A stretch of 64,000 nucleotides of DNA, taken from contig OZ244048.1 in assembly GCA_965215265.1 (NCBI GenBank), positions 3,424,001 through 3,488,000 on the forward strand. Reading direction: 5' to 3'. The stretch is from Candidatus Poribacteria bacterium. Lineage in GTDB: Bacteria > Poribacteria > WGA-4E > WGA-3G. The notes beneath the pieces are model-generated. The model saw only the letters and a program-made list of their open reading frames with translations, searched no databases and had not been told where the DNA came from. Both the position numbers and the translations under genes were made by a program. Shown here in pieces: positions 8,004 to 34,649 of this stretch (the stretch's first letter is position 1; each line of letters opens with the position of its first letter).

Positions 8004-8053
8004 GTGCAGTCGAGTGAAAGTGAAGTTGAGGCGAGCTGGTGATGCGCGAGAAC

Positions 8054-8227
8054 TTAACAGATATAAGGGGGGGGGTAAATCGTTCTTTTTGCTGACGGAC
8101 CCGGCAGATGGCAGTTATCGGCGGCAGTCGTAATACGCGTGAATCTCGATTGAGTGCTTGCGTGCAACGGCAGCGCGGTATTGAGAGAGAGGACAGATTT
8201 TACTGAAGTGCTAAGAGTTATATGCAT
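8054..8227 (-). CDS. Putative 57-aa leader ORF ending in a C9 tract (…TIYPPPYIC*)
   Basis: Open from ATG 8227 to TAA 8056-8054; C9 at 8075-8067. The SD is weak, so translation is unproven. Confidence 0.5.
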   Translation of the reverse strand: MHITLSTSVKSVLSLNTALPLHASTQSRFTRITTAADNCHLPGPSAKRTIYPPPYIC

Positions 8228-8453
8228 GAGCGTTATGGTTACCCGCGAGGTTGGAAACCCTTATCTGTCGAGGCAGGGGGTGTTTCCTAACTTGCGAGTT
8301 GAAAGATCTATTTATTTTTAGAATCAACTATATAGCGAACATCTGGTTTTTCAGACGTTCAGATAAAACTCGGTTTGATTAAGACTAGCGGTTTGAAACC
8401 GGGTGAACCAGAAACATTGTCTCAGCAATATTTTCAGAGAGCTGTGCGTGACA

Positions 8454-9629
8454 TTAAGGGGACAGAGTTGGCAACTCTGGTATTTCCATCCATCGTCGGT
8501 TTTTCCAAGACTCCCATCCCTTTTCTGCTAACTGAACGCCTTTGGCGCCGGCAAGAAGTGTCCAGGGGAACGGTTCATCAGCGACGACATGTCTGAGGAA
8601 GAGTTTCCACTGTGCCTTGAAGGCGTTTTCGTAGGTTTCCTGTTCTGGTACCTTGAGCCATCCATCAAAGAATTGGATAGGTTGTTCGATGTCAGGATTC
8701 CAGACGGGACGTGGGGTTGCAGAGAGAGGCTGGATGCAGCAATCGCGTAATCCAGCAACAGCAGAGCCGTTCAATCCGTCTACGTGTATTGTCAAGAGAT
8801 CGTCGCGTCGTACTCGGACTGCCCAAGAGGAGTTAAAATGAGCGATGATGTCACCTTCTAATTCAAAAGTCGAGTATGCGGCATCTTCGGCTGTACATCG
8901 GTATGGTTTGCCTTCTTCGTCCCAGCGTTGCGTAAAATGTGTCGCTGCAATGCAGGAGACACCTTTGACTTCGCCGAAAAGGTTGTCCAGTACGTATCGC
9001 CAGTGGCTAAACATATCGAGTATAATTCCACCGCCGTCTTCAGCCCGATAGTTCCATGAGGGCCGTTGTGTCGGGATTAGATCACCTTGGAAAACCCAAT
9101 AGCCGAATTCACCTCGGACGGCAATAATTTTCCCGAAAAAATCAGCGTCAATGAGACGTTTCAGTTTTTGGATGCCGGGTAACCAGAGTTTATCCTGAAC
9201 GACTCCGTTTTTGAGTCCGGCGTTTGTTGCCTGTTGGTATAGGCGATACGCATCTTCAGTCGTGGTGGCGGTTGGTTTTTCACAGTAGATGTGTTTGCCG
9301 GCGGAGATTGCGGATTGAACCGCCTTGACACGCTGTGACGTGACTTGCGCGTCAAAATAGACAGAATAACCGTCATCGGCGAGGACAGCATCCAAATCAG
9401 TACTCCATTTTTCAACACCTGTAGTCTGGGATAGTTTCTCTAGTTTGGCTGGGTTTCTACCGACGAGGATAGGTTCAGGCATAATCACTTTTCCTTCCTC
9501 AAGTAGAATGCCGCCTTCTTCAGCGATTGCTAAGATGGAACGGATGAGATGTTGGTTGGTGCCCATTCTTCCGGTGACACCGTTCATGATGATGCCGATA
9601 CGTTGTACTTCTTTGATCTGATTCGTCAT
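8454..9629 (-). CDS. Gfo/Idh/MocA family oxidoreductase
   Basis: IIMNGVTGRMG Rossmann start, HIYCEKP. Confidence 0.88.
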   Translation of the reverse strand: MTNQIKEVQRIGIIMNGVTGRMGTNQHLIRSILAIAEEGGILLEEGKVIMPEPILVGRNPAKLEKLSQTTGVEKWSTDLDAVLADDGYSVYFDAQVTSQRVKAVQSAISAGKHIYCEKPTATTTEDAYRLYQQATNAGLKNGVVQDKLWLPGIQKLKRLIDADFFGKIIAVRGEFGYWVFQGDLIPTQRPSWNYRAEDGGGIILDMFSHWRYVLDNLFGEVKGVSCIAATHFTQRWDEEGKPYRCTAEDAAYSTFELEGDIIAHFNSSWAVRVRRDDLLTIHVDGLNGSAVAGLRDCCIQPLSATPRPVWNPDIEQPIQFFDGWLKVPEQETYENAFKAQWKLFLRHVVADEPFPWTLLAGAKGVQLAEKGWESWKNRRWMEIPELPTLSP

Positions 9630-9731
9630 AGAGGTCCTTATTCTCAATATCATCCAATGTTGAAGAGTTCATCAAGTTCAAAGAGTTGCTGCAAGCCAGT
9701 CTCCTTTTGGTGTGGAGTATCCGGCATGTTC

Positions 9732-10178
9732 TCAAAGCGGTTTGTCGGTGCATTGGGATGCTGCGCCTTCTGGAAGCGGTGGTGCATCAACGCCTGCTTT
9801 CGGGAGTGTGCCTGTTAATTCTTGTTTCCAATGTGCGACATCTCCTGCTGGCCCATAACAGTAGACCATCTGCATGGGTGTATCACTAGTGTTCGTTAAC
9901 TGGTGAAAAACCCACGAGGGAATAAAGACGGTCTGACCGGTGGATACCGTTTGTTTCTCTTCGCCCAGGCACATTTCCCCTTTCCCTTGAACGATGAAGT
10001 AGATTTCTTCCTGTTCGTGGTTATGCCAAGGGACTTGTCCGCCGTTTGGGTATAAGGTTACGAACCCCATACAGAAGTTCTCTATCTGAATTGGAGAAGC
10101 CCCTCCGACGAGGTTTTTGGTTGTGCGGCGGGCGGGATAACTGCGTCCGTCGATGTTGTTTACATCTGCAATGAGCAT
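9732..10178 (-). CDS. Cupin domain protein
   Basis: PWHNHEQEEIYFIVQG...FIPSWVFH cupin motifs; AAAGGA before ATG 10178. Confidence 0.85.
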   Translation of the reverse strand: MLIADVNNIDGRSYPARRTTKNLVGGASPIQIENFCMGFVTLYPNGGQVPWHNHEQEEIYFIVQGKGEMCLGEEKQTVSTGQTVFIPSWVFHQLTNTSDTPMQMVYCYGPAGDVAHWKQELTGTLPKAGVDAPPLPEGAASQCTDKPL

Positions 10179-10507
10179 TATGTGTTGTCCTTTGTAGGTG
10201 TGAGCTCTGTATCGCGATTCCGCTCTATTCAAAAAGTTCTGTTACTAGATATGAAACCGTTCGATAACACTCTCCAATGTAAGCGGCGTGATATCTGTTT
10301 CCGAACGATAGGCTGTCACTGTTGCAGTGCGTTTATCAAGCGTGTTTTTGATAATGTATCACAAAATTCTGATGAAAATACTCAAGGACTCGATATTGAA
10401 AATTCTAATCTAATATTTTTGCTCTCCTTCGGTGCTGATTTATGTTGGTGGCGCGCTTCATGAATTATTTTTTAGTTTTCATCAAAGCGCGCTTACCGCG
10501 CTGCATT

Positions 10508-13144
10508 TTAAGATTCTGAGTCCTCAATGACAGCCTGCGCTGCTGCTAGGCGTGCGATCGGTACACGGAACGGTGAACAGGATACGTAATTAAACGCTAG
10601 GCTGTGGCAAAATTTCACGGAATTCGGTTCGCCGCCGTGTTCACCACAGATGCCCACCTTCAATTCGGGCCGTGTCGTACGCCCTTTTTCACATCCAATT
10701 TTTAAGAGAGTGCCGACGCCATCTTGATCTAGTACTTGGAACGGGTCGTGCTCAAGGATGCCGTCTGCGACGTACTGCCCGAGGAACTTTTCAGCATCGT
10801 CTCGGCTCATCCCGAACGTTGTCTGCGTAAGATCATTGGTTCCGTAAGAGAAAAACTCCGCTTGTGCAGCGATTTTGTCGGCTGTGAGTGCAGCCCGAGG
10901 CAGCTCAATCATGGTGCCGACGAGGTACTCGACGCGTGTGCCTGATTCAGTAAAGACAGTTTCAGCTGTTTCAAGGACGACTTCGCGCTGTAAATTAAAT
11001 TCGTTGATATGTCCGACAAGCGGAATCATGATTTCCGGGAGTACCTCAATCCCGCGCTGTTTGACATCAACGGCTGCCTCAAAGATTGCACGTGCCTGCA
11101 TTTCAGTTATCTCTGGATACATAATACCGAGCCGGCATCCGCGATGTCCAAGCATCGGGTTGAATTCATGCAAGTCCTCGACGCGTTCACTGAGTTTCTG
11201 AGGCGGGACATCGAGGCGTGCGGCGAGTTCCTCTATTTCGGTGTTATTCTTCGGCAAAAATTCGTGCAGCGGCGGGTCAAGGGTCCGAATAGTGACGGGG
11301 TATCCTGCCATTGCTTCAAAGATACCGATGAAGTCTGAGCGTTGGTGTGGAAGGAGTTTCGCCAGTGCTTGTTCGCGTTCTTCAGTATCGTCGGCGAGAA
11401 TCATTTCTCTTACTGCATCAATACCGGTTCCAAAGAACATATGTTCGGTTCTGCAAAGGCCGATGCCTTCAGCGCCAAATTGCCGTGCGTTTTGGGCATC
11501 TTCTGGTGTATCTGCATTGGTGCGGACGTTCAGTGAGCGAAGTTCATCTGCCCATTCCATGAGTGTGCCGAATTGTCCACTCAGTTCAGGTTGTATGAGT
11601 TGGACTTCTCCATCGAGGACATCGCCTGTGGAGCCGTTGAGGGTGATAAAATCGCCTTCGACGTATTGCTTTCCACCGACGTAAAATTCTAAAGTTTCCT
11701 CATTAATGAAGAGAGCGCTACATCCGGCGACACAGCATTTTCCCATTCCTCGTGCGACAACGGCTGCATGGCTTGTCATACCGCCGCGTGCGGTGAGAAT
11801 ACCTTCGGCAGCATCCATTCCGCCAATATCTTCAGGCGAGGTTTCAGTTCGAACCAGAATGACTTTCTCGCCATCGGAGGCGAGCTCTTCGGCACGAATT
11901 GCTGTGAAAACGACTTTACCGACTGCTGCGCCTGGTGAGGCTGGTAGGCCTTGGGCGATAATTTCTACATTTGCACTCGGATCGACTCGCGGATGTAGCA
12001 GCTGGTCCAAGTCCCCTGCAGGGACGCGGGTCAAGGCCGTGTTTTTATCAATTAACCCTTCTTCAACCATTTCAACGGCGATTCGGACAGCGGCCTGGCC
12101 GGTCCGTTTCCCGTTGCGAGTCTGGAGCATGAAGAGCTGCCCGTCCTGAATCGTGAATTCAACATCCTGCATATCGCGGTAGTGTTTCTCAAGCCGTTCT
12201 CCGATATCGACTAATTGTGAATAGGAATCCGGTAAGATATTCTGCAGTTCAGCGATAGGAAGTGGTGTGCGAATACCGGCGACGACATCTTCGCCTTGGG
12301 CGTTCATCAAAAATTCGCCATAAAATACGTTTGCGCCGGTGGATGGATTCCGGGTGAAGGCCACGCCGGTTCCTGAGCTGCCGCCCATATTTCCGAAGAC
12401 CATCGCTTGGACGTTAACAGCCGTGCGTCCGATTTCTTCCGAAATATCGTTGAGTCGTCGATACGTGATGGCACGCGGATTGCCAGAAGACTCAAATACG
12501 GCATCGCGTGCCATATTTAACTGTTGCCTCGGCTCATCAGGGAAATCGTTGCCGGTTCTCTGTTTGATGATGTGTTTGAATTCATCCACGAGGCTTAAAA
12601 GTGCGGCGGCATCAAGTTCCGTATCTAATGTAATTCCATTTGCTTTTTTCTTTTCTTCAAGTAAATGTTCAAACTCGTCATGCTCAACACGAAGGACGAC
12701 GTTTCCAAACATCTGAACGAAGCGGCGATAGGCATCGTACGCGAAACGCTCGTTTTTCGATTTCGCGATAAGCCCTTTTACCGTGTCATCATTCAAGCCG
12801 AGGTTGAGAATAGTATCCATCATTCCCGGCATTGAGACAGCAGCCCCGGATCTAACAGAGAGAAGCAACGGGTTTTCAGTACCGCCAAACGTTGAATTGA
12901 TTGCTCCTTCTATTTTGCGTATGTTATCGTCAATCTGAGCATCAAGTTCGGTTGGGTACTGCTTCTCATTTTCGTAGTAAAATTTGCAAACCTCGGTTGA
13001 GATAGTGAAACCGGGTGGTACTGGGATACCGAGGTTGGTCATTTCTGCGAGATTTGCTCCTTTACCACCAAGTAGGAGCCGCATAGTAGCATCGCCTTCA
13101 CCTTTACCGGCACCAAAGAAGTAAACGTACTTTGGTTTTGACAT
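10508..13144 (-). CDS. ppdK: Pyruvate, phosphate dikinase
   Basis: LLGGKGANL, SVRSGAAVSMPGMMDT, GGMTSHAAVVARG phospho-His motif, GICGEHGG; AGGAGG before ATG 13144. Confidence 0.97.
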   Translation of the reverse strand: MSKPKYVYFFGAGKGEGDATMRLLLGGKGANLAEMTNLGIPVPPGFTISTEVCKFYYENEKQYPTELDAQIDDNIRKIEGAINSTFGGTENPLLLSVRSGAAVSMPGMMDTILNLGLNDDTVKGLIAKSKNERFAYDAYRRFVQMFGNVVLRVEHDEFEHLLEEKKKANGITLDTELDAAALLSLVDEFKHIIKQRTGNDFPDEPRQQLNMARDAVFESSGNPRAITYRRLNDISEEIGRTAVNVQAMVFGNMGGSSGTGVAFTRNPSTGANVFYGEFLMNAQGEDVVAGIRTPLPIAELQNILPDSYSQLVDIGERLEKHYRDMQDVEFTIQDGQLFMLQTRNGKRTGQAAVRIAVEMVEEGLIDKNTALTRVPAGDLDQLLHPRVDPSANVEIIAQGLPASPGAAVGKVVFTAIRAEELASDGEKVILVRTETSPEDIGGMDAAEGILTARGGMTSHAAVVARGMGKCCVAGCSALFINEETLEFYVGGKQYVEGDFITLNGSTGDVLDGEVQLIQPELSGQFGTLMEWADELRSLNVRTNADTPEDAQNARQFGAEGIGLCRTEHMFFGTGIDAVREMILADDTEEREQALAKLLPHQRSDFIGIFEAMAGYPVTIRTLDPPLHEFLPKNNTEIEELAARLDVPPQKLSERVEDLHEFNPMLGHRGCRLGIMYPEITEMQARAIFEAAVDVKQRGIEVLPEIMIPLVGHINEFNLQREVVLETAETVFTESGTRVEYLVGTMIELPRAALTADKIAAQAEFFSYGTNDLTQTTFGMSRDDAEKFLGQYVADGILEHDPFQVLDQDGVGTLLKIGCEKGRTTRPELKVGICGEHGGEPNSVKFCHSLAFNYVSCSPFRVPIARLAAAQAVIEDSES

Positions 13145-13212
13145 CAAAAACCTCCTAATTTTGGGTAGATGTATCACATGTACACGGTTGAAAACCGTGG
13201 CTACTGCGTTAT

Positions 13213-13366
13213 TTCGTCTATTGGCGTACCGTCGCGCTTTATGCTTTGTGAATGACAGTGTCCAGTTCGTCAGAGCCGCTTTATGCTATGCCTAAGATAT
13301 CTCCAACGAGATTTGTAAAGGTTTTAACATTGCAGCAGCCTTTATGGTACTACAGTAGTAGACAAA
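13213..13366. repeat. Imperfect palindromic element made of two inverted degenerate ~75-bp arms
   Basis: Left arm TTCGTCTA...CGTACC...GCTTTATG...TCGTCAGAG; right arm (reverse complement) ...AAATCTCGTTGGAGATATCTTAGG. Homologous to the elements at 15560, 18362, 50052 and 50426. Confidence 0.6.
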
Positions 13367-13374
13367 AAAGTTAA

Positions 13375-14781
13375 TTAAATTGAATAAATTGCACGACTCG
13401 CTTCATCAAATTCAGGTTTAAACGGATCGTTAGAGAGGTAGAGGATTTGATACGGCTCATAAAGTTGAATGTAGCTCCAATTGACACCGCCAATTACCTT
13501 TCCTTGGTTAACCTTTTTGATAAATTTCCCCCGGAATTTGGCACGAGTTCTTTCTGGGGGATTGTGCTCTGCATGGCGAATCTGCGCTGCATCAACAATT
13601 CGTTCGATTTCCTCCCGTTCTTCGAGGGCATAGTAGAGGCTCGCCTCTGGACGTACACTGTGGTATTTCAGGTCGAGCAGCCTGACTTCAGGGGAATTCC
13701 AATGCAGAGAACGGTTCGCCAGGTATGTCTGTAGCCATTTCCATTTAATGACCCAGTCGAGTTCCCTATCTAATTGCATCGGGTCTTTTTCCAAGCAGGT
13801 TAGAACGTACTCCCAGCGTGCCATGAGTTGTTCGGTTGTCTGATCGGATTCAGCCTGTTCAAGGTACCGCTTCGCACATTCCAAATATTGCCACTGCAAT
13901 TGCACTGCGGTTAATCGTTTTCCATTTTCAAGTTCAATCTGTCGTGTGCAAGTTATATCATCGGAGATTTGTCGGATAGCTTGTACGGGTTTGAGGAGTT
14001 TAAACCGTTGCTGAATGAAGTTATCCTCAATCATGCGAAGTACTATCCCGGTTGTGCCGACCTTCAAGAAAGTGGAAAATTCAGACATGTTAGAGTCGCC
14101 AACAATAACGTGTAAGCGTCGATATTTTTCTCTATCGGCGTGAGGTTCGTCGCGTGTGTTGATAATTCCGCGTGCGGTCGTTGTGCCGATTGAAATTTCT
14201 TCACGAATATGGTCTGCTCGTTGCGAGATGGCGTATAATTCTCTATTAGGGAGTTGCCTGCCGTGTTCTGTGAATTGTCCTGCGATTTTGCCTGTCTTGA
14301 TTTTTCCTGCGCCTGTGAAGACTTGTCGCGTAACAAAAAACGGGATCAGCTGCGCTGCCAATTGCCGGAAGTGAACGTGCCGCTCCATCAAATAATTTTC
14401 GTGGCAGCCATAGGTATTGCCAGAGGTGTCTAAGTTGTTTTTAAAAATGGAAATTTTCCCACGGAATCCGTCATTCCGCATCCGCCTTTCCGCTGTGCTT
14501 GCGAGGCGTGTGATAATCCGTTCGCCGGCTTTATCGTGTGCGACCAGCTCGGCGACATCATCGCACTCCGGGGTTGCGTATTCAGGGTGGCATCCAATAT
14601 CTTGATAAAACCGTGCGCCATTTTCAAGGAAGACATCTGGATACATGCGCCCGGCGACGATTTCTCGGAAAAGATACATGACGGTATTTTGGACAGTGAG
14701 GGACTTCCCCCGCTGTTCATCGGGTGTCCATATAATTCCGAACTCCGTTTCAAGTCCGTAAATTCTACGTTTCATGGGCAA
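13375..14781 (-). CDS. pafA: Pup-protein ligase
   Basis: KRRIYGLETEFG, FLENGARFYQD.GCHPEYATPEC, NTYGCHENYL, INTRDEPHAD, RRLHVIVGDSNMSE; last gene of the operon. Confidence 0.9.
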   Translation of the reverse strand: MPMKRRIYGLETEFGIIWTPDEQRGKSLTVQNTVMYLFREIVAGRMYPDVFLENGARFYQDIGCHPEYATPECDDVAELVAHDKAGERIITRLASTAERRMRNDGFRGKISIFKNNLDTSGNTYGCHENYLMERHVHFRQLAAQLIPFFVTRQVFTGAGKIKTGKIAGQFTEHGRQLPNRELYAISQRADHIREEISIGTTTARGIINTRDEPHADREKYRRLHVIVGDSNMSEFSTFLKVGTTGIVLRMIEDNFIQQRFKLLKPVQAIRQISDDITCTRQIELENGKRLTAVQLQWQYLECAKRYLEQAESDQTTEQLMARWEYVLTCLEKDPMQLDRELDWVIKWKWLQTYLANRSLHWNSPEVRLLDLKYHSVRPEASLYYALEEREEIERIVDAAQIRHAEHNPPERTRAKFRGKFIKKVNQGKVIGGVNWSYIQLYEPYQILYLSNDPFKPEFDEASRAIYSI

Positions 14782-14808
14782 CTTTTCTCCAAATTACGAG
14801 GTCTGTTT

Positions 14809-15534
14809 TCAGGAAGCGTTTAATAATTCCACGACCTCTGTGGTAGAGAGACGTTGGAATTTGCGTCGCCCTGGACCCCGGACGAGGGACGCTACCTCAA
14901 TTGTGTCGGCGGAGATTTCATAATCTGAGTCAGTTTGAGTTTCGATTGCTTGAAAAGTCTGGTTTATGAGTTGGAGTGCTGCCGCCATCTCTAGATTGTC
15001 AACGTAGTTTTGTTCCAGAATTTCTGTGATTTCTGCGGCGCGCCCGCCAATAGCAGCGTATTTTTCCTCTTCCCAATAAATGCCATCATAGTGAATATGG
15101 TAAATCTGATTCGCGTAGCTGCCATTGCTGTTTGAGTTATCCGTGCTGCCTACCTCACAAACGAGAAGTTCAATTTCCAAGGGTTTTGCATCCCAGGCTT
15201 GCGCGACTGCGCCCATGTGTTGTGAATAGAGGTTTGTCAGCCATTTTGCGGTAACATCTTCGCGGTAGTAGCGGAAGCCTTTAATTTCCGCTTCGCGGAT
15301 ACCCGCGACGCGGAGTGCCTCATATTCAGCGATGCGCCCGGCCGATGCGAGTGCAATCCGATCATAAATTTCAGAAATCTTAAAGATAGATTTGCGAGGG
15401 TTTTCTGCTACCATCAGCAGTCCGTCTCGGTACTCTAAAACGACAACCTCTTTCGCTTGTTCAATGCCTCGCCGGACGAAATCCTCTTTGTCTTGACGGA
15501 TCTGTTCAGGGGAAACATAATAAGGTGTGGACAT
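14809..15534 (-). CDS. prcA: 20S proteasome alpha subunit
   Basis: PYYVSPEQ N-terminus and KISEIYDRIA, as in actinobacterial-type PrcA. Confidence 0.92.
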   Translation of the reverse strand: MSTPYYVSPEQIRQDKEDFVRRGIEQAKEVVVLEYRDGLLMVAENPRKSIFKISEIYDRIALASAGRIAEYEALRVAGIREAEIKGFRYYREDVTAKWLTNLYSQHMGAVAQAWDAKPLEIELLVCEVGSTDNSNSNGSYANQIYHIHYDGIYWEEEKYAAIGGRAAEITEILEQNYVDNLEMAAALQLINQTFQAIETQTDSDYEISADTIEVASLVRGPGRRKFQRLSTTEVVELLNAS

Positions 15535-15559
15535 TCAATTCCTCTTCACGTTTTGATTA

Positions 15560-15719
15560 TTCGTCTACAGGAGCCCATTACCGCTTTATGTTTTGATAAC
15601 CTTAGCACAAATCTCGTCAGAGCCCTTCGATGTATTGATTCATTACCTAAGGAGCCTCCGACGAGAGCTACACAGTGATTACCAATACATAACGCATTGA
15701 TGGTACGGAGATATACGAA
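15560..15719. repeat. Imperfect palindromic element (two inverted arms) between prcB and prcA
   Basis: The right arm reverse complement TTCGTATATCTCCGTACCATCAA...CTCGTCGGAGG..CTTAGGTA matches 50426-50503. Confidence 0.7.
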
Positions 15720-15723
15720 TTAC

Positions 15724-16569: not shown

Positions 16570-16571
16570 TT

Positions 16572-16769
16572 CTACTGCCCTCCCCGTTGGATATAGTTTT
16601 CAACAAATTCCTCGGAGTCTTCTTCCAAAATCTCGTCAATTTCGTCCAGAAGTGCGTTTAAATCTTCGGCGAATTCCTCGTCCAGCTCCTGATTTTCAGG
16701 GATATGTTGGATGTCCTTGGTGTCATCCACGTGTTGCTCATTGAGTTCCTGCTGTTTTTCGACTGACAT
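16572..16769 (-). CDS. pup: Prokaryotic ubiquitin-like protein Pup
   Basis: 65 aa, acidic, ends LLDEIDEILEEDSEEFVENYIQRGGQ; lies between dop and prcB. Confidence 0.93.
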   Translation of the reverse strand: MSVEKQQELNEQHVDDTKDIQHIPENQELDEEFAEDLNALLDEIDEILEEDSEEFVENYIQRGGQ

Positions 16770-16836
16770 TGTATTCCCCTTAGTTTAAATAGGCGCGTAA
16801 TGTCCGCGCACAGCGTGTTAAATTCTACTCTATAGA

Positions 16837-24416: not shown

Positions 24417-24479
24417 AACTCACTTTATATGATATAGTATATACACAAATGCATCATAATATCAACAATACAGGGAACA

Positions 24480-27400: not shown

Positions 27401-28229
27401 CGATTGGACTCCGTTCTTCACGACGTGGGGTATCCGTGCTAAGATGAAAAAAATGGGACCTGAAGCTCGCGAACTCTTTAACGATGCCCAAGAACTGCTC
27501 AGGTTCATCGTCAAGGAAAAGCGGGTTCGTGCCCGTGCCGTCGTCGGGCTCTTTCCGGCTAACAGCGTGGGCGAAGATACTGAAATTTACGTTGATGAAT
27601 CAAGGAGAGAGGTGCTTGCAACGCTGCATCACCTCCGGCAACAGACAGAACAACCGTTCGGCAGAGCGAACTTGAGTCTCGCGGATTTCATCGCGCCCAA
27701 GGCAACCGCTCTACAGGATTATATCGGTGCATTTGCGGTGACGACAGGCATCGGTGTTTCAGAACTCTGCGACGAATTTGAAAAAAAACAGGACGATTAC
27801 AATAGCATTATGACAAAAGCCCTAGCTGACCGGCTGGCGGAAGCATTCGCAGAGCGGATGCATCAGCGCGTTCGCACAACGATCTGGGGGTATGCAGAAG
27901 ATGAAACGTTGGATAACGATTCACTGATTGCGGAAGAATACCGGGGGATTCGTCCTGCCCCAGGCTATCCTGCTTGTCCTGAGCACACCCAAAAGCGCGT
28001 GTTGTTTAGTTTGTTGGACGTTGAGAAAAATATAGGCATCTCTCTCACTGAGAATCTCGCGATGGCCCCTGCAGCATCAGTCAGTGGTTGGTATTACGCA
28101 CATCCGGAAGCGCGGTATTTTAGCATCGCCCGGATCGGTGCAGACCAGCACGCAGACTATGCTGCAAGGACAGGAATGACACTTGAAACGGCGGAACGTT
28201 GGCTCAAACCGCTGCTAGATAAACGGTAA
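24480..28229 (+). CDS. metH: Cobalamin-dependent methionine synthase
   Basis: [32 protein letters not shown]12 motif, [10 protein letters not shown]. Confidence 0.97.
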
Positions 28230-28250
28230 ACTGTTTGAATAGGCAAAAAC

Positions 28251-29150
28251 ATGCAAACATCTCATAAATATTTGGATCCGGTGGCACTTTCTCGCATCGG
28301 TAGCATGGAACTGGTCGCCCGGCTCGTTGTGGAAGGGTTCATCACCGGTTTACACAAAAGTCCGTATCAAGGATTTAGCGTCGAGTTTGCAGAACATAGA
28401 CAGTATATGCCCGGCGATGAAATCCGCTATATTGATTGGAAAGTGTTCGGAAAATCTGACCGGTACTATGTCAAAAAATTTGAAGAAGAAACGAACCTCC
28501 GTGCGTATATCCTACTTGATACGAGTGCGTCAATGAATTTTAGTCAAGGAGATAGCGAACGAAAAACGTTGACGAAGTTTGAATACGGTTGTTATCTCGC
28601 AGCATCCTTAGCGTATCTTATGCTGAAACAACGTGATTCTGTCGGATTAGCAATTTTCAATACGGAGATTGCTGAGTATATCCCGCCACGAGGGACTGCG
28701 ACGCATCTCCGTGCCATCATGTCTGCCTTGGAGCATGCCCAACCGGGTAAGGAGACGAATCTGAGCAGCCTCTTCCATGAACTTGCGAAGCGGATTGTCA
28801 GGCGTGGATTAGTTATCGTGATTTCCGATCTTCTTGATGAACCGACCGCGGTCATCTCTGCTTTGAAACATCTCCGTCATCAAAAGCACGAGGTTATCGT
28901 TTTCCACCTGCTGGACCCTGCGGAACTGAACTTTCCGTACAAAGGCTCAGTTGTTTTTCGGGATATGGAGAGCGGGCAGACACTTTCAACGCAGGCAGAT
29001 ACGTTAAAGGCTGCCTATCTCATGCAACTCAATGAGTTTATCCAGAATTATCGCCGTGGATGTGGCGGGAGCCTAATTGATTATGTGCAGATGGATACAA
29101 CTACGCCGTTTGATTACGCGCTGTCGGCTTATCTATCACAGCGAAATTAG
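28251..29150 (+). CDS. DUF58 domain protein (MoxR/vWA associated)
   Basis: GLHKSPYQGFSVEFAEHRQYMPGDEIRYIDWK, LLDTSASM. Confidence 0.9.
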   Translation: MQTSHKYLDPVALSRIGSMELVARLVVEGFITGLHKSPYQGFSVEFAEHRQYMPGDEIRYIDWKVFGKSDRYYVKKFEEETNLRAYILLDTSASMNFSQGDSERKTLTKFEYGCYLAASLAYLMLKQRDSVGLAIFNTEIAEYIPPRGTATHLRAIMSALEHAQPGKETNLSSLFHELAKRIVRRGLVIVISDLLDEPTAVISALKHLRHQKHEVIVFHLLDPAELNFPYKGSVVFRDMESGQTLSTQADTLKAAYLMQLNEFIQNYRRGCGGSLIDYVQMDTTTPFDYALSAYLSQRN

Positions 29151-29164
29151 AAAACGAGGGACCT

Positions 29165-30331
29165 ATGAAAACCTATCGGATTGCAATTCTAGGCTGTAGA
29201 GGACGTGGCACAGCCGCTGCCCGTGCGTATCACGCACATCCACGTGTAGAGATTGTCGGACTCTGTGACCTGATTGAAGAACGGCGAGATATATTAGGTG
29301 CCGAAGTCAATGTCCCCGCACGGTTCGCGAATTTAGACGATATGATTCTACAGACGACTCCTGACATTGTCGCGATTCCTACCGGTACAGAATTTCATTA
29401 TGACTTGTGTCTGCGCGTTTTGGAACACGGCATCCACATTGAGGTAGAAAAACCGATGTGTGTGGATTTAGTTCAAGCAGATGCGGTTATTGCCAAAGCA
29501 GCCGAGAAAAATGTCAAGGTTGCCGTGCATCATCAAGGCAGGGTGGGTGCGTCGATGCAGGCGATCGCGCATGCCTTTAATGCTGGCAAAATCGGGGAAC
29601 TGCGATATATCTATGGAAGTGGGAAAGGCTACTACGGTGGATACGGCTTGATGAACATCGGTACGCACATGCTCAACAACATGTTGCATTTCGGGAAACG
29701 GTGCAGAAGTGTTGTGGCACAACTCATGACAGGTAGCCGGCCGATCGTGCCGGAAGATGTCGTTCCATCGCCAAGCGGCATGGGGACTATCGCTGGTGAA
29801 TATATCACAGCGACTTTGCAATATGAAGGTAATGTTACAGGGACCTTGCTTCAACACCGGTTTGATAAGATGGATACTGCAGCGTATTCCATGGAACTCT
29901 ACGGTACCGAAGGCAGACTATTTTGGAAGAGCGGGGGTGCATGGTGGTTACCCCATCCACACTATCTCCCTGATGGTACAAACGACCGATGGGAGGCATT
30001 AGAACTTATCTATCCTGAGCACTACGATGTCAAAAGCGGGGCAGCGGAGGCAGATTATTGGTTCGTAGAGGAATATGTCCGCGCATTGGATGAAAATAGG
30101 GAACATGAATGCAGTGGGACAGCGGGCCGCCACATTATTGAGATGATGATGGGTATCTTTGAATCTGCGGCGTATGGCAGGCGGGTCGAACTACCACAAA
30201 CAGACCGGCGGCACCCTTTGCTCCGGTGGCGCGAAGGAACCGGATTAGAATCGCCTGCGGAGATGCCGCGCGGTTATGGAGAATGGTTGGCGTTGGAATC
30301 CGAACGGATCGCCTCGCCAGTGTTAAGGTGA
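29165..30331 (+). CDS. Gfo/Idh/MocA family oxidoreductase
   Basis: IAILGCRGRG, EVEKPM, NIGTH. Confidence 0.85.
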   Translation: MKTYRIAILGCRGRGTAAARAYHAHPRVEIVGLCDLIEERRDILGAEVNVPARFANLDDMILQTTPDIVAIPTGTEFHYDLCLRVLEHGIHIEVEKPMCVDLVQADAVIAKAAEKNVKVAVHHQGRVGASMQAIAHAFNAGKIGELRYIYGSGKGYYGGYGLMNIGTHMLNNMLHFGKRCRSVVAQLMTGSRPIVPEDVVPSPSGMGTIAGEYITATLQYEGNVTGTLLQHRFDKMDTAAYSMELYGTEGRLFWKSGGAWWLPHPHYLPDGTNDRWEALELIYPEHYDVKSGAAEADYWFVEEYVRALDENREHECSGTAGRHIIEMMMGIFESAAYGRRVELPQTDRRHPLLRWREGTGLESPAEMPRGYGEWLALESERIASPVLR

Positions 30332-30636
30332 TGGACAAAGTCTTGCACAAGTCCCGTGTGCGTGTGAGGGAGAGGGAGTTGGTGCAGGTCTGTCAAACTT
30401 GCTTGAGTGCCTGAGTTCTCATGCGTCAAGTCTCCACTATTCAGGGACTCGCAACGGAGACATCCTTCGGTGTCGTAGACTTCAATCGCGTCCACTGAGA
30501 AGCCCACATTCCAGTTAATGTTCGCCACTGCATGCGCTCGACTCTTAAAGCAGAGCGTAAACACGGCGGAGTCTTCGACATCAATATCCAAGCAGACGGT
30601 ATCGGCATAGCCGCGCGCCGATACGATATCGCCCAT
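30274..30636 (-). pseudogene. C-terminal fragment of a Gfo/Idh/MocA oxidoreductase
   Basis: DVEDSAVFTLCF...IEVYDTEG...LVQDFVHHL resembles the family's C-terminal domain; no Rossmann part; begins at the direct-repeat boundary (30641). Confidence 0.55.
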
Positions 30637-30640
30637 CAGA

Positions 30641-30788
30641 TTTTGTCAAGGCAGTCTCCAGATTTCGTTTCTCAAGGCGGCCTCGGTGCTTCTCTGAAAG
30701 CAAAAAAAACCAGGGGCAGCCATGTGAGGGTGGCTGCCCCTGGTTTAGGTTAGGTTAGGTGAATTTACATCTCACTGAGTTTACTCTT
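30641..30788. repeat. ~150-bp direct repeat, copy 1
   Basis: Aligns with 32002-32154 (TTTTGTCAAGG...CTCAAGGCGGCCTCGGTGCTTCTCTGAAA...TTAGGTTAGGTTAG...CACTGAGTTTA). Confidence 0.9.
30702..30746 (-). terminator. Intrinsic terminator
   Basis: AAACCAGGGGCAGCCA/TGGCTGCCCCTGGTTT stem with T8 on the minus strand. Confidence 0.85.
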
Positions 30789-30861
30789 GTGCCTTAAGCG
30801 TCGCCCAGCGTTCTGTGAGTTTACCGTCCGCACTCAGATGCCCTTTCAAGCGGGTTGTCTG

Positions 30862-31947
30862 CTACGTGTCGGTGTGGTTGTCAGCTGCCTCCAGCTGCCG
30901 GACGAGTTCTGCACGCACCTCTGGAGATAAATTCTGAATCTCCGCCGGGCGAAGTCCGGCTAACCGTTCATCGGGAGTGAGTCCTTTGACGCGCTCATCG
31001 GGGCTCAGGCGTGCTAACATATCGGCCCGTTCTGCGGCGGGTAGACTCGCCAACATATCGGCCCGTTCTGCGGCGGGTAGACTCGCCAACATATCCGCAC
31101 GTTCTGCCGCAGATAGCCTTGCTAACATGTCCGCACGGGCTTCAGCGGGCAGCCGTGCGAGCAGATCCGCCCGGTCTTGAGGACTCAAGCGGGCGAGCAT
31201 GTCCGCACGCTCCTCCGATGTCAGTGCCGACAGCAGCTTCGGACCTAAAGTCGTCGCAACTTCGCGAAGACGACTCTGAAAGAAATCTTGACGTCCTTCC
31301 ATTTCACAAACCTCCTCCGTGACTTCCGGCTGCAAATACAACGCGGAGTCAAAATATAACGTATTCTCTTCCGTTATCACCCGCCGCAGGAACGCACGAA
31401 ACTGTTTCTGCGACGACGCAAACAGCAGCAACCAATAATTCGGTTCAACCAGTGCCACTTCATTGCAAACCAACAGATGCACCGGCACGCCATCCATCAA
31501 CCGATAATGCCCTGCCGCCAATGGCTCCCACGGCTCCCCAAAAGGCGGACGGGAGAGCAGCACCCGCGGCTTCCGAGACGACACTATCGTCAAGGTAACC
31601 TCCGTGTCTGGCACCTTATGCGCTGCGAGATAACCACGCGCACGCATACAAATCCGGTGATACGCCGAGGCATTCAACGGGTCGTTCTGCCCTTTGAACT
31701 CGAACAGATTATACGTGCGTAAGTAAGAGAGCAGCGGATTCGCACGCACTCTCGCCCGGGCTGCGGCACTTTCGAGGAGAGCGAGTGCATCTATACGCTG
31801 CGGCAACCGGTTGACTTCTATCTCTGTCTGGATAGAGGCACCCAGCCCAGAGAATAGCAGGGCGAGGAACTCTTTGAAGAAAGGGTCCCAGAGTTTCCGT
31901 TTGCTTTGTGTTTCTTTAGATGTCTCTGGTGCCGTAGTTTGCCTCAT
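30862..31947 (-). CDS. PD-(D/E)XK nuclease-like (Rpn-like) protein with 13-aa C-terminal repeats
   Basis: RLPQRIDAL...NLFEFKG; CNEVALVEPNYWLLLFASS shared with 1938-2792; repeated ERADMLAxL units. Confidence 0.72.
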   Translation of the reverse strand: MRQTTAPETSKETQSKRKLWDPFFKEFLALLFSGLGASIQTEIEVNRLPQRIDALALLESAAARARVRANPLLSYLRTYNLFEFKGQNDPLNASAYHRICMRARGYLAAHKVPDTEVTLTIVSSRKPRVLLSRPPFGEPWEPLAAGHYRLMDGVPVHLLVCNEVALVEPNYWLLLFASSQKQFRAFLRRVITEENTLYFDSALYLQPEVTEEVCEMEGRQDFFQSRLREVATTLGPKLLSALTSEERADMLARLSPQDRADLLARLPAEARADMLARLSAAERADMLASLPAAERADMLASLPAAERADMLARLSPDERVKGLTPDERLAGLRPAEIQNLSPEVRAELVRQLEAADNHTDT

Positions 31948-31980
31948 CTATCTGCTTAGACGCTCCACTTCTCATAATAA

Positions 31981-32010
31981 AGTATAGCAGCCTCCCTATT
32001 ATTTTGTCAA
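31981..32010 (-). promoter_or_regulatory. Sigma70-type promoter of the nuclease-like gene
   Basis: TTGACA-18 nt-TATACT with TG extension; the -35 hexamer lies in the end of the direct repeat. Confidence 0.6.
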
Positions 32011-32154
32011 GGCCGTCTCCAGATGTCGCTTCTCAAGGCGGCCTCGGTGCTTCTCTGAAAACAAAAAAAACCAGGGGCAGCCATGTGAGGGTGGCTGCCC
32101 CTGGTTTAGGTTAGGTTAGTTTAGTTTAACTTAGATTTCACTGAGTTTATTCTT
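32002..32154. repeat. ~150-bp direct repeat, copy 2 (contains terminator 32063-32107)
   Basis: Aligns with 30641-30788; identical hairpin. Confidence 0.9.
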
Positions 32155-32167
32155 CCGAGTTAAGTTG

Positions 32168-34649
32168 TTATTTTGACAGCGGCGAGATATCCGACACTTG
32201 CGTATCACTGAGATCCAACTTTTTCAAGTTGGTGAGGTTTGACAGAGGTGTGATATTCTCTACTGGCGTACCCGAGAGAGACAGCTCTAGCAAGCTGGTG
32301 AGGCTTGACAGTGCCGAGATATCCGACACTGGCGTACCCGAGAGAGACAGCTCTAGCAAACTCGTGAGGCTTGACAGTGCCGAGATATTCTCTACTGGCG
32401 TACCCGAGAGAGACAGCTCTAGCAAGCTGGTGAGGTTTGACAGGGCTGAGATATCCAACACTTCCGTATCACTGAGATCCAACTCTTCCAAGTTGGTGGC
32501 GTATTCAAGTCCAGTCAGATCGCTAATGTCTGAGCCACCTACATCAAGCTCTGTCAAGAGGAGTATATCTCTCTGGAAAACATCCATATCATCGGCGATG
32601 TCGAGTTTCTTCTTGATTCCCGTAAGGAGCGTCTCATCCGGAATGTTCACCACCGGCGAACCCGCAAAACCTACCACTGTCAAGTTGGTGAGGCTTGACA
32701 GTGCTGAGATATCCGACACTGGCGTACCCGTGATATCCAGCGTTTGCAAGTTGGTGAGGCTTGACAGTGCCGAGATATCCGACACTGGCGTATTAGTGAT
32801 ATCCAGCGTTTGCAAGTTGGTGAGGCTTGACAGTGCCGAGATATTCGACACTTGCGTATCACTGATATCCAGCGTTTGCAAGTTGATGAGGCTTGACAGT
32901 GCCGAGATATCCGACACTTGCGTATCACTGATATTCAGCGTTTGCAAGTTGGTGAGTCTTGATAGGGCTGAGATATTCGACACTTGCGTTCCCGTGATAT
33001 TCAGCGTTTGCAAGTTGGTGAGTCTTGATAGGGCTGAGATATTCGACACTTGCGTTCCCGTGATATCCAGCGTTGTCAAGTTGATGAGGCTTGACAGTGC
33101 CGAGATATTCGACACTTGCGTACCCGAGAGATCCAGCGTTTGCAAGTTGGTTGCGTGTTCAAGTCCAGTCAGATCGCTAACGTCTGAGCCACTTAAATCG
33201 AGACTTGTCAAGCCTAGTATATTTGCCGAGGTGACAGCCGTCCCCGCGGCGATGTTGAGTGTCTCCTTGATTTCCGCAAGGAGCGCCGCATCCGGAATGT
33301 TCAAATCGACGACTGTATTTACAGGCACTGTCAGCGTATTCGAGGCCTTGCTCAGGTTGCCCACTATGTCCATTGTGGCATTCTCTGGCACCGTTATTTC
33401 CACATTTCCGTCAAAACCCGACGGCGGCGTGATAGTCGCTCTGTAGACTTTGAAGGCGGAACTATGTTTCACCCTCCCGCTATCATCTACATTCGGACTA
33501 TTAAAACCGGGATCCCGATGGTCTAAGCCGATTAACATCGGGGCTGAAACCTGCCAATCAGCCGCGGTGGAGCCCAGTGTCATCACTGTGCCATCTACCG
33601 TGAGCGTGATGTCCGTCGCCTCGAAGCCTCGCGTGGTATCTGCAATCACACCATCATCGTCACTTCCAACCCCATAATTGTAGAATAGGAATTCCACATT
33701 AAAGGGCGCTGTCTGAGTGTCAGTTTCGGTAACAGCCGCATCGGGTGCTGTCGTTGAAAAATCCACATAGTCGGTGCGGTAACCCGTGCTAACATCATGA
33801 GTCTCAGCCTTGATCAGCCCGGGAATCCTCACATTCGCCCGGATAGTATCTATGAGATACTTAAGACCGTCATGAATAGAAGGCTCCTGCAGCGGAGGCA
33901 TCCGGCCATAAAAGACCCGCGAAAGCTTCTGTGTGTAGTCTGCATTACCCGTAGTTTTCCACTTATGATCATCGGGGGTGGTATTGACGGGGTTCGCGAC
34001 GTCCTCGCCATTATCTATGATGAAATTATTTGCATCGTCAACATAGGGATTGCTACTATGAACTATAACAACGCCATCGCCGAAAACGTCATCGCCGTCT
34101 TGCACCTCGTATTTGAAATATACGACTTTATTAGAGGCTCGCGCAGCGGTCCTTGCTGAATCATAGACGGCACGTAGTGTAGTGCCACCGGGGTCATCCT
34201 CACCGTCCATCCGTAGCTCCAGGGCCGGCAGATCGGACGTTCCATCGTTCTCGACTTTGACATCTATACTAAATGTTAACTCAAAAACGATTTCATCTGT
34301 ACTACTGAAAAATTTAACCGCTTGGCCCGTGGTGGGGTTGGAGTACCCCGGGGCAGTAAGAATGTTTGATGTATGGTTTGCTACTAGATCCGTCCTAAAA
34401 TTTCCACCCTGCTCCCAATTTGCAATTAAATATGCCCTGCTGTACGCATAGAGCGAATCGCCTGTATGTGTACCTTCACTCACTATCTCAACCTTCTCTA
34501 ACGTCGGTTTCGCTGCCTGCACGGTAGCCATCGGTGCGGCTAACATCGCAACCCCGGCTATCGAAATTACAGATGAGATAAATCTGACACTCAACACGGA
34601 AATAAAATACTTAACATATAGAAGGGGGGGGGTGCATTCTTCTCTTCAT
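32168..34649 (-). CDS. Secreted internalin-type LRR protein; the 5' end is out of frame at a C9 tract
   Basis: 22-aa repeats LQTLDIxxTxVSDISALSSLTN in two blocks, each after an NIPD cap. AAGGAG-led ATG 34649 is in frame with ORF 32168-34597 only if C9 (34632-34624) is C8 or C11. Confidence 0.85.
32175..33150. repeat. 66-bp tandem repeats encoding LRRs (two blocks)
   Basis: Recurring GAGGCTTGACAGTGCCGAGATAT with 66-nt period. Confidence 0.9.

What the first reader, a model, noticed from the sequence alone, without database searches (positions are those of the whole stretch)
8052..34649. Same C9 / 'PPP-x-I-C-stop' leader cassette upstream of two unrelated accessory genes: candidate shared frameshift switch
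Seen in sequence: on the minus strand, 8076-8052 reads ACCCCCCCCCTTATATCTGTTAAGT and 34633-34609 reads ACCCCCCCCCTTCTATATGTTAAGT (23/25 identical). These were the only 9-nt C/G runs I noticed in the window. Each ends a short leader ORF in the same register (…IYPPPYIC* and MKRRMHPPPSIC*), in front of a type ISP R-M gene and an LRR surface protein respectively. In both, the +1 frame continues productively. Established: homopolymer tracts drive phase variation of R-M and surface genes, and polyproline stalls ribosomes (EF-P). Inference: ordinary slipped-strand tracts do not need a conserved 13-nt 3' flank or identical length. This may be a portable regulatory cassette working by DNA phase variation, RNA polymerase slippage, or programmed +1 frameshifting on Pro codons just before a stop. 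The LRR gene has its own consensus promoter about 290 nt further upstream, which argues against the motif being a promoter.
Basis: partly seen in the sequence, partly recalled or inferred. Interest (0 to 1): 0.92.

Follow-up and report, generated by a model that had tools for sequence, protein, structure and literature searches.

The report
Oriented poly-C switch cassette in Poribacteria
The two nine-C runs are real copies of a short cassette that this uncultured sponge-symbiont genome places at about fifty defence and surface genes, most likely as mutational on/off switches, and its conserved flank is still unexplained.

Summary
Both C9 runs exist, each followed by GTTAAGT. Genome-wide, 48 of 100 C/G runs of 8 or more bases (20 of 49 unrelated flank families) carry GTTAAGT within 30 nt 3' of the C run, and 0 of 100 carry it 5' (about 0.1 expected by chance). 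The best reading is slipped-strand contingency loci, not ribosomal frameshifting.

Site 2 lies in the signal-peptide codons of an LRR protein family with 14 paralogs. Their runs are C7 to C9; 6 are in frame and 8 are not, and the window copy is out of frame.

Site 1 cannot fuse to the type ISP restriction-modification gene. It lies in an upstream ORF within the transcribed leader. At C9 the uORF stops at the TAA inside GTTAAGT. At C8 or C10 it reads about 80 codons through a terminator-like hairpin and stops 14 or 4 nt before the enzyme's ATG. That gating design is inferred and has only modest statistical support.

The flank is a DNA-level element. It occurs on either strand relative to genes. 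Methyltransferase lineages that gained poly-G also use the codons CTT AAC (6 of 7), against 0 of 18 without poly-G. Its function is unknown. No RNA or read-level data were available.

The parts
8067..8075 (-). C9 run of site 1, inside the 5' leader of the type ISP gene
   Evidence: Contigs of 4 public runs bridge it with no insertion or deletion.
8052..8058 (-). GTTAAGT flank motif. Its TAA (8056-8054) is the stop of the upstream ORF in the C9 state.
8054..8227 (-). Upstream ORF as it stands (ATG 8227-8225, 57 codons, TAA 8056-8054). It is the only ATG-started frame that crosses the run. Its Shine-Dalgarno sequence is weak.
7814..8066 (-). 253-nt leader between the run and the enzyme's ATG. 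It is C-rich and G-poor (C 0.38, G 0.18). Two of its three frames stay open to within 14 nt and 4 nt of the ATG (stops TGA 7827-7825 and TAA 7817-7815).
   Evidence: In the shuffle test, two frames reach the last 30 nt in 4.4% of 5000 shuffles.
7962..8003 (-). Terminator-like hairpin (GCCTGCCC...GGGCAGGC) followed by T7. Only the extended upstream-ORF frames read through it.
   Evidence: Read and folded (-21.5 kcal/mol; the z-score against shuffles is not significant). The scan did not list it; I attribute this to the hairpin's long loop, which I did not test.
8327..8354 (-). Weak sigma-70-like promoter candidate (CTGAAA-16-TATAGT) at the edge of the duplicated unit. The 96% paralog has TTGACA-17-TACAAT at the matching place.
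2978..7813 (-). Type ISP restriction-modification enzyme, 1611 aa
   Evidence: Its start is conserved in relatives.
34624..34632 (-). C9 run of site 2, at codons 6-9 of the LRR protein's leader
34609..34615 (-). GTTAAGT flank motif. Its TAA (34613-34611) ends the present 12-codon frame.
34611..34664 (-). Shine-Dalgarno AAGGAG (34664-34659), ATG (34649-34647) and the short frame as it stands
32168..34597 (-). LRR protein body (809 codons from the first GTG). It is out of frame with the ATG at C9 and in frame at C8 or C11.
34921..34949 (-). Near-consensus sigma-70 promoter of the LRR gene (TTGACA-17-TATACT, 11 of 12)

Best explanation
Both C9 runs belong to a genome-wide set of about 50 hypermutable homopolymer switches (simple-sequence contingency loci) in a Candidatus Poribacteria genome. 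Replication slippage changes the run length, and the length sets the reading frame.

At site 2 the run sits right after the start codon of a secreted LRR protein. C8 or C11 gives the full protein. C9, the state in this assembly, stops at the TAA inside GTTAAGT.

At site 1 the run sits in a small upstream ORF within the transcribed leader of a type ISP restriction-modification gene. At C9 the ribosome leaves at that TAA, 51 nt before a hairpin-plus-U7 and a C-rich, G-poor stretch. Transcription is then expected to end there, either intrinsically or through Rho, and the enzyme is off. At C8 or C10 the ribosome reads about 80 more codons through the hairpin and stops 14 or 4 nt before the enzyme's ATG. 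That should keep the transcript going and couple translation, so the enzyme is on.

The conserved flank (TTTA, C8-11, TT, an A/T-rich stretch, TGTTAAGT) is a DNA-level element tied to the run itself. In C-sense loci it supplies the off-frame stop codon. Its further role is unknown.

Shown: the sequence anatomy, the length polymorphism among paralogs, the strict orientation of the flank and the codon coupling. Inferred: actual switching, translation of the upstream ORF, and termination with coupling.
For: (1) Long C/G runs are over-represented. Counts for lengths 6 to 11 are 500, 66, 44, 46, 4 and 6, so the decline stops at 8-9.
(2) Paralogs with near-identical flanks differ in run length. The LRR family has 1 C7, 7 C8 and 6 C9, with 6 of 14 in frame. 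A lipoprotein-leader family carries 8-11, the type IIG family 8-9, and the type ISP family 8, 9, 9.
(3) The gene classes are those typical of contingency loci: many N6_N4 methyltransferases, Eco57I/MmeI-type enzymes, type ISP and type I-like enzymes, LRR proteins, NPCBM lipoproteins, ABC transporters and ComEC.
(4) The upstream-ORF design recurs. In 6 of 7 upstream-type families one ATG-started ORF crosses the run. In one length class it stops 9-39 nt after the start of the run. In another class it ends between 14 nt before and 1 nt into the next gene's start. That includes ATGA overlaps in the second type ISP family and in the lipoprotein family.
(5) The runs lie inside transcribed leaders, downstream of consensus promoters.
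(6) A Rho gene is present.
(7) C9 at site 1 is not an error of one assembly, because contigs from 4 runs of 4 studies show no indel there.
(8) The flank acts at the DNA level. It is strictly oriented relative to the C run (48 of 100 on the 3' side, 0 of 100 on the 5' side). It occurs on either strand relative to genes. Families share only a 17-30 nt core. Among methyltransferases with the FAGSGTT...LN...GG motif, 6 of 7 poly-G genes use CTT AAC for the Leu-Asn pair and 1 uses CTT AAT, while 0 of 18 genes without poly-G use CTT AAC. The tree needs 3-4 gains or losses of poly-G.
Against: Site 1 is C9, the predicted off state, in this assembly, in its 96% paralog and in contigs of all 4 other runs laid. 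No length change was therefore seen at this site. Contigs hide minority variants.

The shuffle support for the open leader frames is modest. Two frames reach the last 30 nt in 4.4%, 5.4% and 6.9% of shuffles for three families. One frame does so in 19-42% for three others. One family fails the test.

The upstream ORFs have weak or distant Shine-Dalgarno sequences. The hairpin's folding energy is not better than shuffles.

In a related genus (G007), few of the 47 runs examined show a tight upstream-ORF design; most are plain in-gene runs.

Related type ISP genes in other Poribacteria lack the leader. Only 1 of the 79 loci scanned has any C run of 7 or more within 700 nt upstream, and 12 of those loci held fewer than 700 nt of upstream sequence.

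The genome has MutS and MutL, which should dampen slippage.

The stop-codon role cannot explain why the flank is kept in genes that read the G strand.
Confidence: 0.6

Rival explanations
1. The cassette is the landing site of a trans-acting factor that acts on the run itself. The factor could be a DNA-binding protein, nickase or methyltransferase. It would raise, lower or time run-length switching, or read out run length. Switching would then be targeted rather than passive slippage.
For: The flank has a strict orientation relative to the C run whichever strand the gene reads. Only GTTAAGT and a few neighbouring positions are conserved, while the 6-15 nt spacer varies. Each related genome has its own dialect shared by unrelated genes: CACATACGTTAAGT in G004, TTTACATTTGTTAATTA in G006, GTTAACC in G002 and GGTA-C9-TCTGTAC in G015. 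Codons co-change with poly-G in three methyltransferase lineages. Mismatch repair genes are present, so unaided slippage should be repaired.
Against: No candidate factor was identified. GTTAAGT is not enriched genome-wide (409 observed against 391 expected). Poly-C runs without the motif (52 of 100) also vary in length among paralogs. No known phase-variation system needs such a site (recalled).
Confidence: 0.17
2. The flank similarity has no function of its own. Short cassettes are copied between loci by gene conversion or microhomology-mediated repair seeded on the identical C runs. The flanks are therefore homogenised within a genome.
For: Dialects are genome-specific. Two methyltransferase genes from different clades of one genus share an identical stretch of about 19 nt across the Leu-Asn codons and spacer, yet the G001 gene is only 46% identical in protein to the G000 query, and they fall in different clades.
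Against: Spacers between the run and the motif differ in length (6-15 nt) and in sequence among families, while GTTAAGT is invariant. Copying would carry the spacer along. Families share no homology outside the core that could support recombination.
Confidence: 0.12
3. Run length is fixed at C9, and expression comes from RNA polymerase slippage on the run, which would give a constant mix of frames.
For: C9 is the commonest length (46 of 100 runs). It is uniform in several families (4 of 4, 3 of 3 and 2 of 2 copies) and in 4 runs at site 1.
Against: Other families vary from 7 to 11, and some copies are directly in frame. Slippage is known mainly for A/T runs (recalled). No RNA data were available to test it.
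Confidence: 0.07
4. Programmed +1 ribosomal frameshifting occurs on the proline codons before a stop, perhaps tuned by EF-P.
For: C9 encodes Pro-Pro-Pro in both window frames, and a stop follows soon after.
Against: The stop is three codons after the run, not adjacent. No fixed frame relation exists, because GTTAAGT is read as Val-Lys, as Leu-Ser or as a stop in different paralogs. The cassette lies antisense in at least 6 gene families. At site 1 the shifted frame does not join the enzyme.
Confidence: 0.03
5. The run is the spacer of a promoter, so that its length tunes the -35/-10 distance.
For: At site 1, TTTACC - 17 nt - TAAGTT can be read across the run (by eye).
Against: The distance from the run to the motif ranges from 6 to 15 nt, so the implied spacer would be 15-26 nt. 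The -10 candidate lacks the conserved T in most families. Consensus sigma-70 promoters lie well upstream. Half of the cassettes lie deep inside genes.
Confidence: 0.02

Closest known systems
Poly-G/C contingency loci of Campylobacter jejuni, Helicobacter pylori, Neisseria and Haemophilus (recalled; C. jejuni G8/G9/G10 on/off examples seen in passages of bioRxiv 10.1101/2022.11.09.515450)
   Same: Runs are 8-11 G or C in restriction-modification and surface genes. Frames switch on and off with run length. Many loci occur per genome, and paralogs sit in different states.
   Different: Here about half of the runs carry a strictly oriented, conserved 3' flank (GTTAAGT) and a preferred 5' TTTA. No such flank is described for the known systems (recalled; none found in searches). 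The host is an uncultured sponge symbiont with intact MutS and MutL.
Phasevarions: phase-variable type III mod and type IIG methyltransferase genes, for example the C. jejuni cj0031 poly-G (recalled)
   Same: Repeat runs lie inside DNA methyltransferase genes. This genome has dozens (N6_N4_Mtase and Eco57I/MmeI families).
   Different: At the window's type ISP gene the run is not in the enzyme gene but in an upstream ORF. Regulon effects of methylation were not tested.
Leader-ORF attenuation (pyrBI type) and uORF-dependent Rho attenuation (mgtCBR, corA, topAI/toiL). The latter is listed in the Rho review PMC12360218 (passages read); pyrBI is recalled.
   Same: A translated leader ORF overlaps a terminator or a C-rich stretch. 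Whether the ribosome covers it decides read-through. The leader ORF's stop abuts the start of the next gene.
   Different: The input here would be a heritable frameshift in a homopolymer run, not a metabolite or a stall. In the passages read, the review lists invertible DNA as the stochastic input for Rho-linked phase variation (fim, C. difficile flgB) and no repeat-run uORF.
Promoter-spacer homopolymer switches, such as the Bordetella fim poly-C and Neisseria porA/opc (recalled)
   Same: A homopolymer run upstream of the regulated gene.
   Different: The run here lies 190-245 nt downstream of the promoter, inside a translated frame.

Membership tests
Simple-sequence contingency locus (slipped-strand phase variation) | A homopolymer run of about 8 or more bases within a reading frame or a regulatory leader | tested here: met
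Simple-sequence contingency locus (slipped-strand phase variation) | Adding or removing one base switches between a full-length and a truncated reading | tested here: met
   (LRR gene: C8 or C11 gives 826-827 codons, C9 gives 12). (upstream ORF: 57 codons against 133-137).
Simple-sequence contingency locus (slipped-strand phase variation) | Long runs are over-represented in the genome | tested here: met
   C/G run counts for lengths 6-11 are 500, 66, 44, 46, 4 and 6.
Simple-sequence contingency locus (slipped-strand phase variation) | Run length is polymorphic between cells, strains or recent paralogs while the flanks stay the same | tested here: inconclusive
   Met among paralogs. Not seen between strains at site 1, which is C9 in contigs of 4 of 4 runs. 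No raw reads were available.
Simple-sequence contingency locus (slipped-strand phase variation) | A measured high, reversible switching rate | not testable with these tools
   The organism is uncultured, and only contigs were on hand.
Programmed +1 ribosomal frameshift site (prfB type) | A slippery codon directly followed by a stop or a hungry codon, with a fixed site in all copies | tested here: not met
   The stop is 3 codons after the run. Lengths and frames differ among paralogs. The cassette is antisense in several families.
Leader-ORF attenuation / translational coupling | A leader ORF that, in one state, covers a terminator or a C-rich stretch and ends at the start of the next gene | tested here: met
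   for site 1, with recurrence in 6 of 7 upstream-type families. The statistics are modest.
Leader-ORF attenuation / translational coupling | Termination in the leader that is relieved by translation | not testable with these tools
   No RNA data. Only the presence of a Rho gene was shown.
Sigma-70 promoter with a homopolymer spacer | The run lies between -35 and -10 hexamers 16-18 nt apart | tested here: not met
Type ISP restriction-modification enzyme | Mrr-like nuclease, ResIII/helicase, coupler, N6 methylase and type ISP C-terminal specificity domain in one chain | tested here: met
Integron core site (GTTRRRY) | The 7-mer together with an inverse core and an imperfect palindrome of 57 bp or more | tested here: not met
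   The 7-mer fits the recalled consensus. No inverse core or long palindrome exists in most families, and the shared core is only 17-30 nt.

The most novel reading that the evidence does not exclude
Poribacteria carry a dedicated, sequence-addressed phase-variation system. A cassette of about 35 bp (TTTA, C8-11, TTCAYAT-N-GTTAAGT, with genus-specific dialects) would be recognised by a trans-acting factor that directs or controls run-length change at roughly 50 chosen genes. Placed in leader ORFs, the cassette would turn whole restriction-modification operons on and off through ribosome-dependent anti-termination.
Probability: 0.18. Interest if true: 0.9.

Novelty: new variant of a known kind. 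Interest (0 to 1): 0.72.

Why it matters
Phase variation through homopolymer runs is a textbook matter for a few pathogens. It is thought to need nothing beyond the run. This case differs in three ways.

First, it occurs on a large scale (about 100 runs) in an uncultured sponge-symbiont phylum. There it would diversify both the defence repertoire, with dozens of methyltransferases and restriction enzymes, and the eukaryote-like LRR proteins thought to mediate host contact.

Second, half of the runs carry an oriented, conserved flank that imposes itself even on the codons of conserved protein motifs. That points to a cis requirement which current models of slipped-strand switching do not include.

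Third, the run can act from a leader ORF through translation-dependent read-through. That would link two well-studied mechanisms, contingency loci and leader-ORF attenuation, which have not been described together in the literature I could search.

All three points can be tested with existing sponge metagenome reads and simple reporters.

Tried and rejected
Promoter readings were rejected. I tried -35/-10 assignments on both strands, an extended -10 (TGnTAAGTT), ECF-type boxes, and a -10 that starts at the last T of the motif. None gives a constant spacing across families, and real consensus promoters lie elsewhere.

A general genomic role for GTTAAGT was rejected: 409 copies against 391 expected.

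Larger shared modules were rejected. Blast among the 49 family representatives finds only the 17-30 nt core.

Resemblances recalled from memory are leads only. These were the integron core GTTRRRY, the XerD arm of dif, the PrfA box, ArcA direct repeats and a stretch of 16S rRNA near position 1090. None was tested beyond the missing second half-site or palindrome.

Orientation relative to replication could not be assessed, because the cumulative GC skew has no clear turning points.

Expression: no RNA holder is listed among the 21 runs found, so transcript ends, slippage and read-through could not be examined. All runs laid were contigs, so minority run lengths could not be seen.

Generality of the upstream-ORF design: in G007, 47 runs in 38 fetched stretches gave only a few loose cases. 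Related type ISP loci in other species lack the leader.

The LRR leader cassette was not found in the 60 other genomes of the family that were searched.

Metagenome scans gave 0 hits for the LRR leader. The general cassette gave 4 hits, all in stretches of 39-44% G+C and 3 of them one identical sequence; they were not followed up.

Literature: no paper on Poribacteria or sponge symbionts with phase variation, homopolymeric runs or contingency loci was relevant. No paper held 'phase-variable', 'uORF' and 'poly-G' together (search 57). The search for 'GTTAAG' with 'methyltransferase' gave nothing relevant (search 78). Supplementary files were not consulted.

Full report
WHAT IS THERE. On the minus strand, 8076-8052 and 34633-34609 each read A, C9, TT, six bases, then TGTTAAGT. 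They agree at 23 of 25 positions. These are the only C/G runs of 9 in the window; the only other run of 7 or more is a C7 at 42377. Downstream of the first lies a 1611-aa type ISP restriction-modification enzyme (2978-7813). Downstream of the second lies an 809-codon LRR protein frame (32168-34597).

THE ORGANISM AND THE SCALE. The window is part of a single-contig genome of 4.83 Mb with 48% G+C. Relatives of the type ISP gene found in named records are overwhelmingly Candidatus Poribacteria, a phylum of sponge symbionts.

The genome holds 100 C or G runs of 8 or more. Counts for lengths 6 to 11 are 500, 66, 44, 46, 4 and 6, so the expected decline stops at 8-9. Grouped by flanking sequence, the 100 runs fall into 49 families. 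In 48 runs (20 families) GTTAAGT lies within 30 nt on the 3' side of the C strand. No run has it on the 5' side. The reverse complement appears once on the 3' side and never on the 5' side. The chance expectation is 0.001 per window. Only 1 of 66 C7 runs has the motif.

The base before the run is A in 18 of 21 motif families, usually as TTTA, and the run is followed by T. Anchored on the motif, the consensus is T-n-A-y-A-T-n-T-GTTAAGT-w-t-t. The run lies 6-15 nt upstream of the motif. Outside a core of 17-30 nt, the families share no similarity. GTTAAGT is not enriched in the genome overall (409 against 391 expected). It is therefore a companion of the runs, not a general signal.

WHERE THE CASSETTES SIT. 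Pfam scans show that the runs lie in or before the following gene classes:
- many N6_N4 DNA methyltransferases
- Eco57I/MmeI-type enzymes
- five type ISP genes
- a type I-like enzyme
- 14 LRR proteins
- nine NPCBM-domain lipoproteins
- two ABC transporter genes
- ComEC
- a DUF4007 protein

Three arrangements occur. In the first, the C strand is the sense strand and the run lies within the gene. In the second, the G strand is the sense strand, so the motif reads ACTTAAC and precedes poly-G. In the third, the run lies 130-500 nt upstream of a gene on the same strand. Because the flank keeps its orientation to the run and not to the gene, no ribosome-level or mRNA-level reading can explain it in all cases.

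SITE 2 (LRR). A near-consensus promoter (TTGACA-17-TATACT, 34949-34921) is followed by AAGGAG (34664-34659) and ATG (34649). The run begins at the sixth codon. At C9 the frame ends after 12 codons at the TAA inside GTTAAGT. With one C fewer, or two more, it joins the LRR frame to give 826-827 codons.

The genome has 14 such leaders with nearly identical upstream sequence. One has C7, seven have C8 and six have C9. Six are in frame and eight are not. In different paralogs GTTAAGT is read as Val-Lys, as Leu-Ser or as a stop, so its conservation is not a protein constraint. This is the classical picture of a family of independently switching surface proteins. This leader was not found in 60 other genomes of the same taxonomic family.

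SITE 1 (TYPE ISP). The run is 253 nt upstream of the enzyme's ATG, and neither alternative frame joins the gene. The enzyme's start is the same as in relatives.

The locus (window 2017-8333) is duplicated at 96% identity elsewhere in the genome. Three more paralogs at 70-75% identity carry the same arrangement. Those copies have consensus promoters about 195-245 nt upstream of the run: TTGACA-17-TACAAT, and TTGCAT-17-TATAAT. The window copy has only a weak candidate, because the duplication ends there. The run is therefore inside the transcribed leader.

Exactly one ATG-started frame crosses the run (ATG 8227). At C9 it stops at the TAA of GTTAAGT (8056-8054). At C8 it runs on to a TGA at 7827-7825, 14 nt before the ATG. 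At C10 it runs on to a TAA at 7817-7815, 4 nt before the ATG.

Between those points lies a hairpin of eight G-C-rich pairs plus inner pairs, followed by seven U (8003-7962). It sits within a leader that is 38% C and 18% G. The genome encodes Rho.

In the second type ISP family the extended frame ends in an ATGA overlap with the enzyme's start. One of its three copies (C8) is in that state. The same logic appears before a DUF4007 gene, an ABC transporter, a putative methylase (N-terminal motif judged by eye; Pfam found no family in its larger frame) and the nine lipoprotein genes. In each, one length class stops within 9-39 nt and another ends at or next to the next start. One further family fits poorly.

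I read this as a heritable frameshift in a leader ORF. It decides whether ribosomes cover the terminator or C-rich stretch and deliver themselves to the enzyme's start.

The caveats are real. Composition-preserving shuffles give two frames reaching the last 30 nt in 4-7% of trials for three families, and one frame in 19-42% for three others. The Shine-Dalgarno sequences of the leader ORFs are weak. The hairpin is not more stable than shuffles. A related genus shows few tight cases.

IS C9 REAL, AND DOES IT VARY? Contigs of four public runs from four studies bridge site 1 without any insertion or deletion. One of them differs by 33 substitutions over 1236 bases. So C9 is not an error of this assembly, and it is also the prevailing state elsewhere. 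That counts against frequent switching at this particular site. However, contigs drop minority variants, and no raw reads or RNA were on hand. The evidence for length change therefore rests on paralogs.

THE FLANK IS SELECTED AT THE DNA LEVEL. Methyltransferases of the N6_N4 class share the protein motif FAGSGTT..A..LN..GG.R.FILVE. In this genome the four copies with poly-G use CTT AAC for Leu-Asn, and the nine copies without poly-G use CTC AAC or CTG AAC.

One search returned 26 rows, 25 of them distinct sequences. Among those 25 homologues, drawn from 61 genomes of the family, 6 of 7 poly-G genes use CTT AAC and one uses CTT AAT. None of the 18 without poly-G uses CTT AAC. A maximum-likelihood tree needs 3-4 gains or losses of poly-G.

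In the poly-G genes, the conserved residues between Leu-Asn and Gly-Gly are also replaced by residues whose codons fit the cassette spacer. The cassette thus overrides a conserved protein motif on at least three occasions.

Related genomes have their own versions shared by unrelated genes: CACATACGTTAAGT in G004, TTTACATTTGTTAATTA in G006, GTTAACC in G002 and GGTA-C9-TCTGTAC in G015. The strict pattern occurs in 13 of 24 other genomes of the family and in 0 of 16 genomes of three sister families, with 0 hits for the control pattern throughout.

WHAT THE FLANK DOES. In C-sense loci its TAA is the off-frame stop. That holds at site 1, at site 2, in the type IIG family and in 5 of 6 upstream-type families, with an earlier TAA in the sixth. 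This cannot be the whole story, because the motif is equally kept where the G strand is read. The remaining options are a recognition site for a factor acting on the run, or homogenisation by copying. The variable spacer and the invariant 7-mer favour the first option. I could not test either.

COMPARISON AND NOVELTY. The behaviour is that of simple-sequence contingency loci and phasevarions, and the leader design is that of leader-ORF attenuation. Three things are new:
- the host, for which no report was found for this phylum or for sponge symbionts
- the oriented conserved flank
- the use of a run inside a leader ORF; the Rho review, in the passages read, lists only invertible DNA as a stochastic input to Rho-linked phase variation

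I rate it a new variant of a known kind. Interest is 0.72 and confidence in the overall reading is 0.6.

Noticed in passing
window 34990-36867 (-): A complete MutL gene lies directly upstream of the switching LRR gene. The genome also has two MutS-family genes. The organism therefore keeps mismatch repair while holding about 100 long C/G runs.
   Followed up: partly
window 2017-8333; genome 1456025-1462343: The whole type ISP locus with its leader is duplicated at 96% identity. Three further paralogs at 70-75% identity carry the same poly-C leader.
   Followed up: partly
loci L030-L087: Type ISP enzymes 59-67% identical to this one occur in genomes labelled Acidobacteriota, Bryobacterales, Latescibacterota, Rhodothermales, Alpha- and Gammaproteobacteria, Opitutales and others. 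That suggests exchange among phyla. Whether these genomes share a habitat was not checked.
   Followed up: no
genome 3229028-3229035 (locus L135): A C8 run with an ATTAAGT flank sits near the 5' end of a ComEC/Rec2 competence gene. DNA uptake may therefore also be switchable.
   Followed up: no
genome 1073311, 2499906, 4633644, 4466485 (LRR paralogs): In one LRR subfamily the frame that encodes a good signal peptide is not the frame of the protein body. This suggests a second frameshift site or decay.
   Followed up: no
G002, many places: A multi-copy element is made of an A-run, C8-9 and a palindromic GTAGGGCGAGGGCCTGTCCCTCGCC unit (REP- or MITE-like). It is a different home for poly-C in a related genome.
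   Followed up: no
G001:C1:898849-898922: An exceptionally long C run of about 24, followed by TTAACGGATGATAACGAT, in a family whose other copies carry C9-C10.
   Followed up: no
loci L157, L158, L160 and L159: Four metagenome stretches of 39-44% G+C carry GATTTA-C8/9...TGTTAAGT. Three of them are the same sequence. Whether this is chance or the same cassette in another lineage is open.
   Followed up: no
window 42377-42383 (+): A C7 run without the flank motif. It is the only other C/G run of 7 or more in the window.
   Followed up: no
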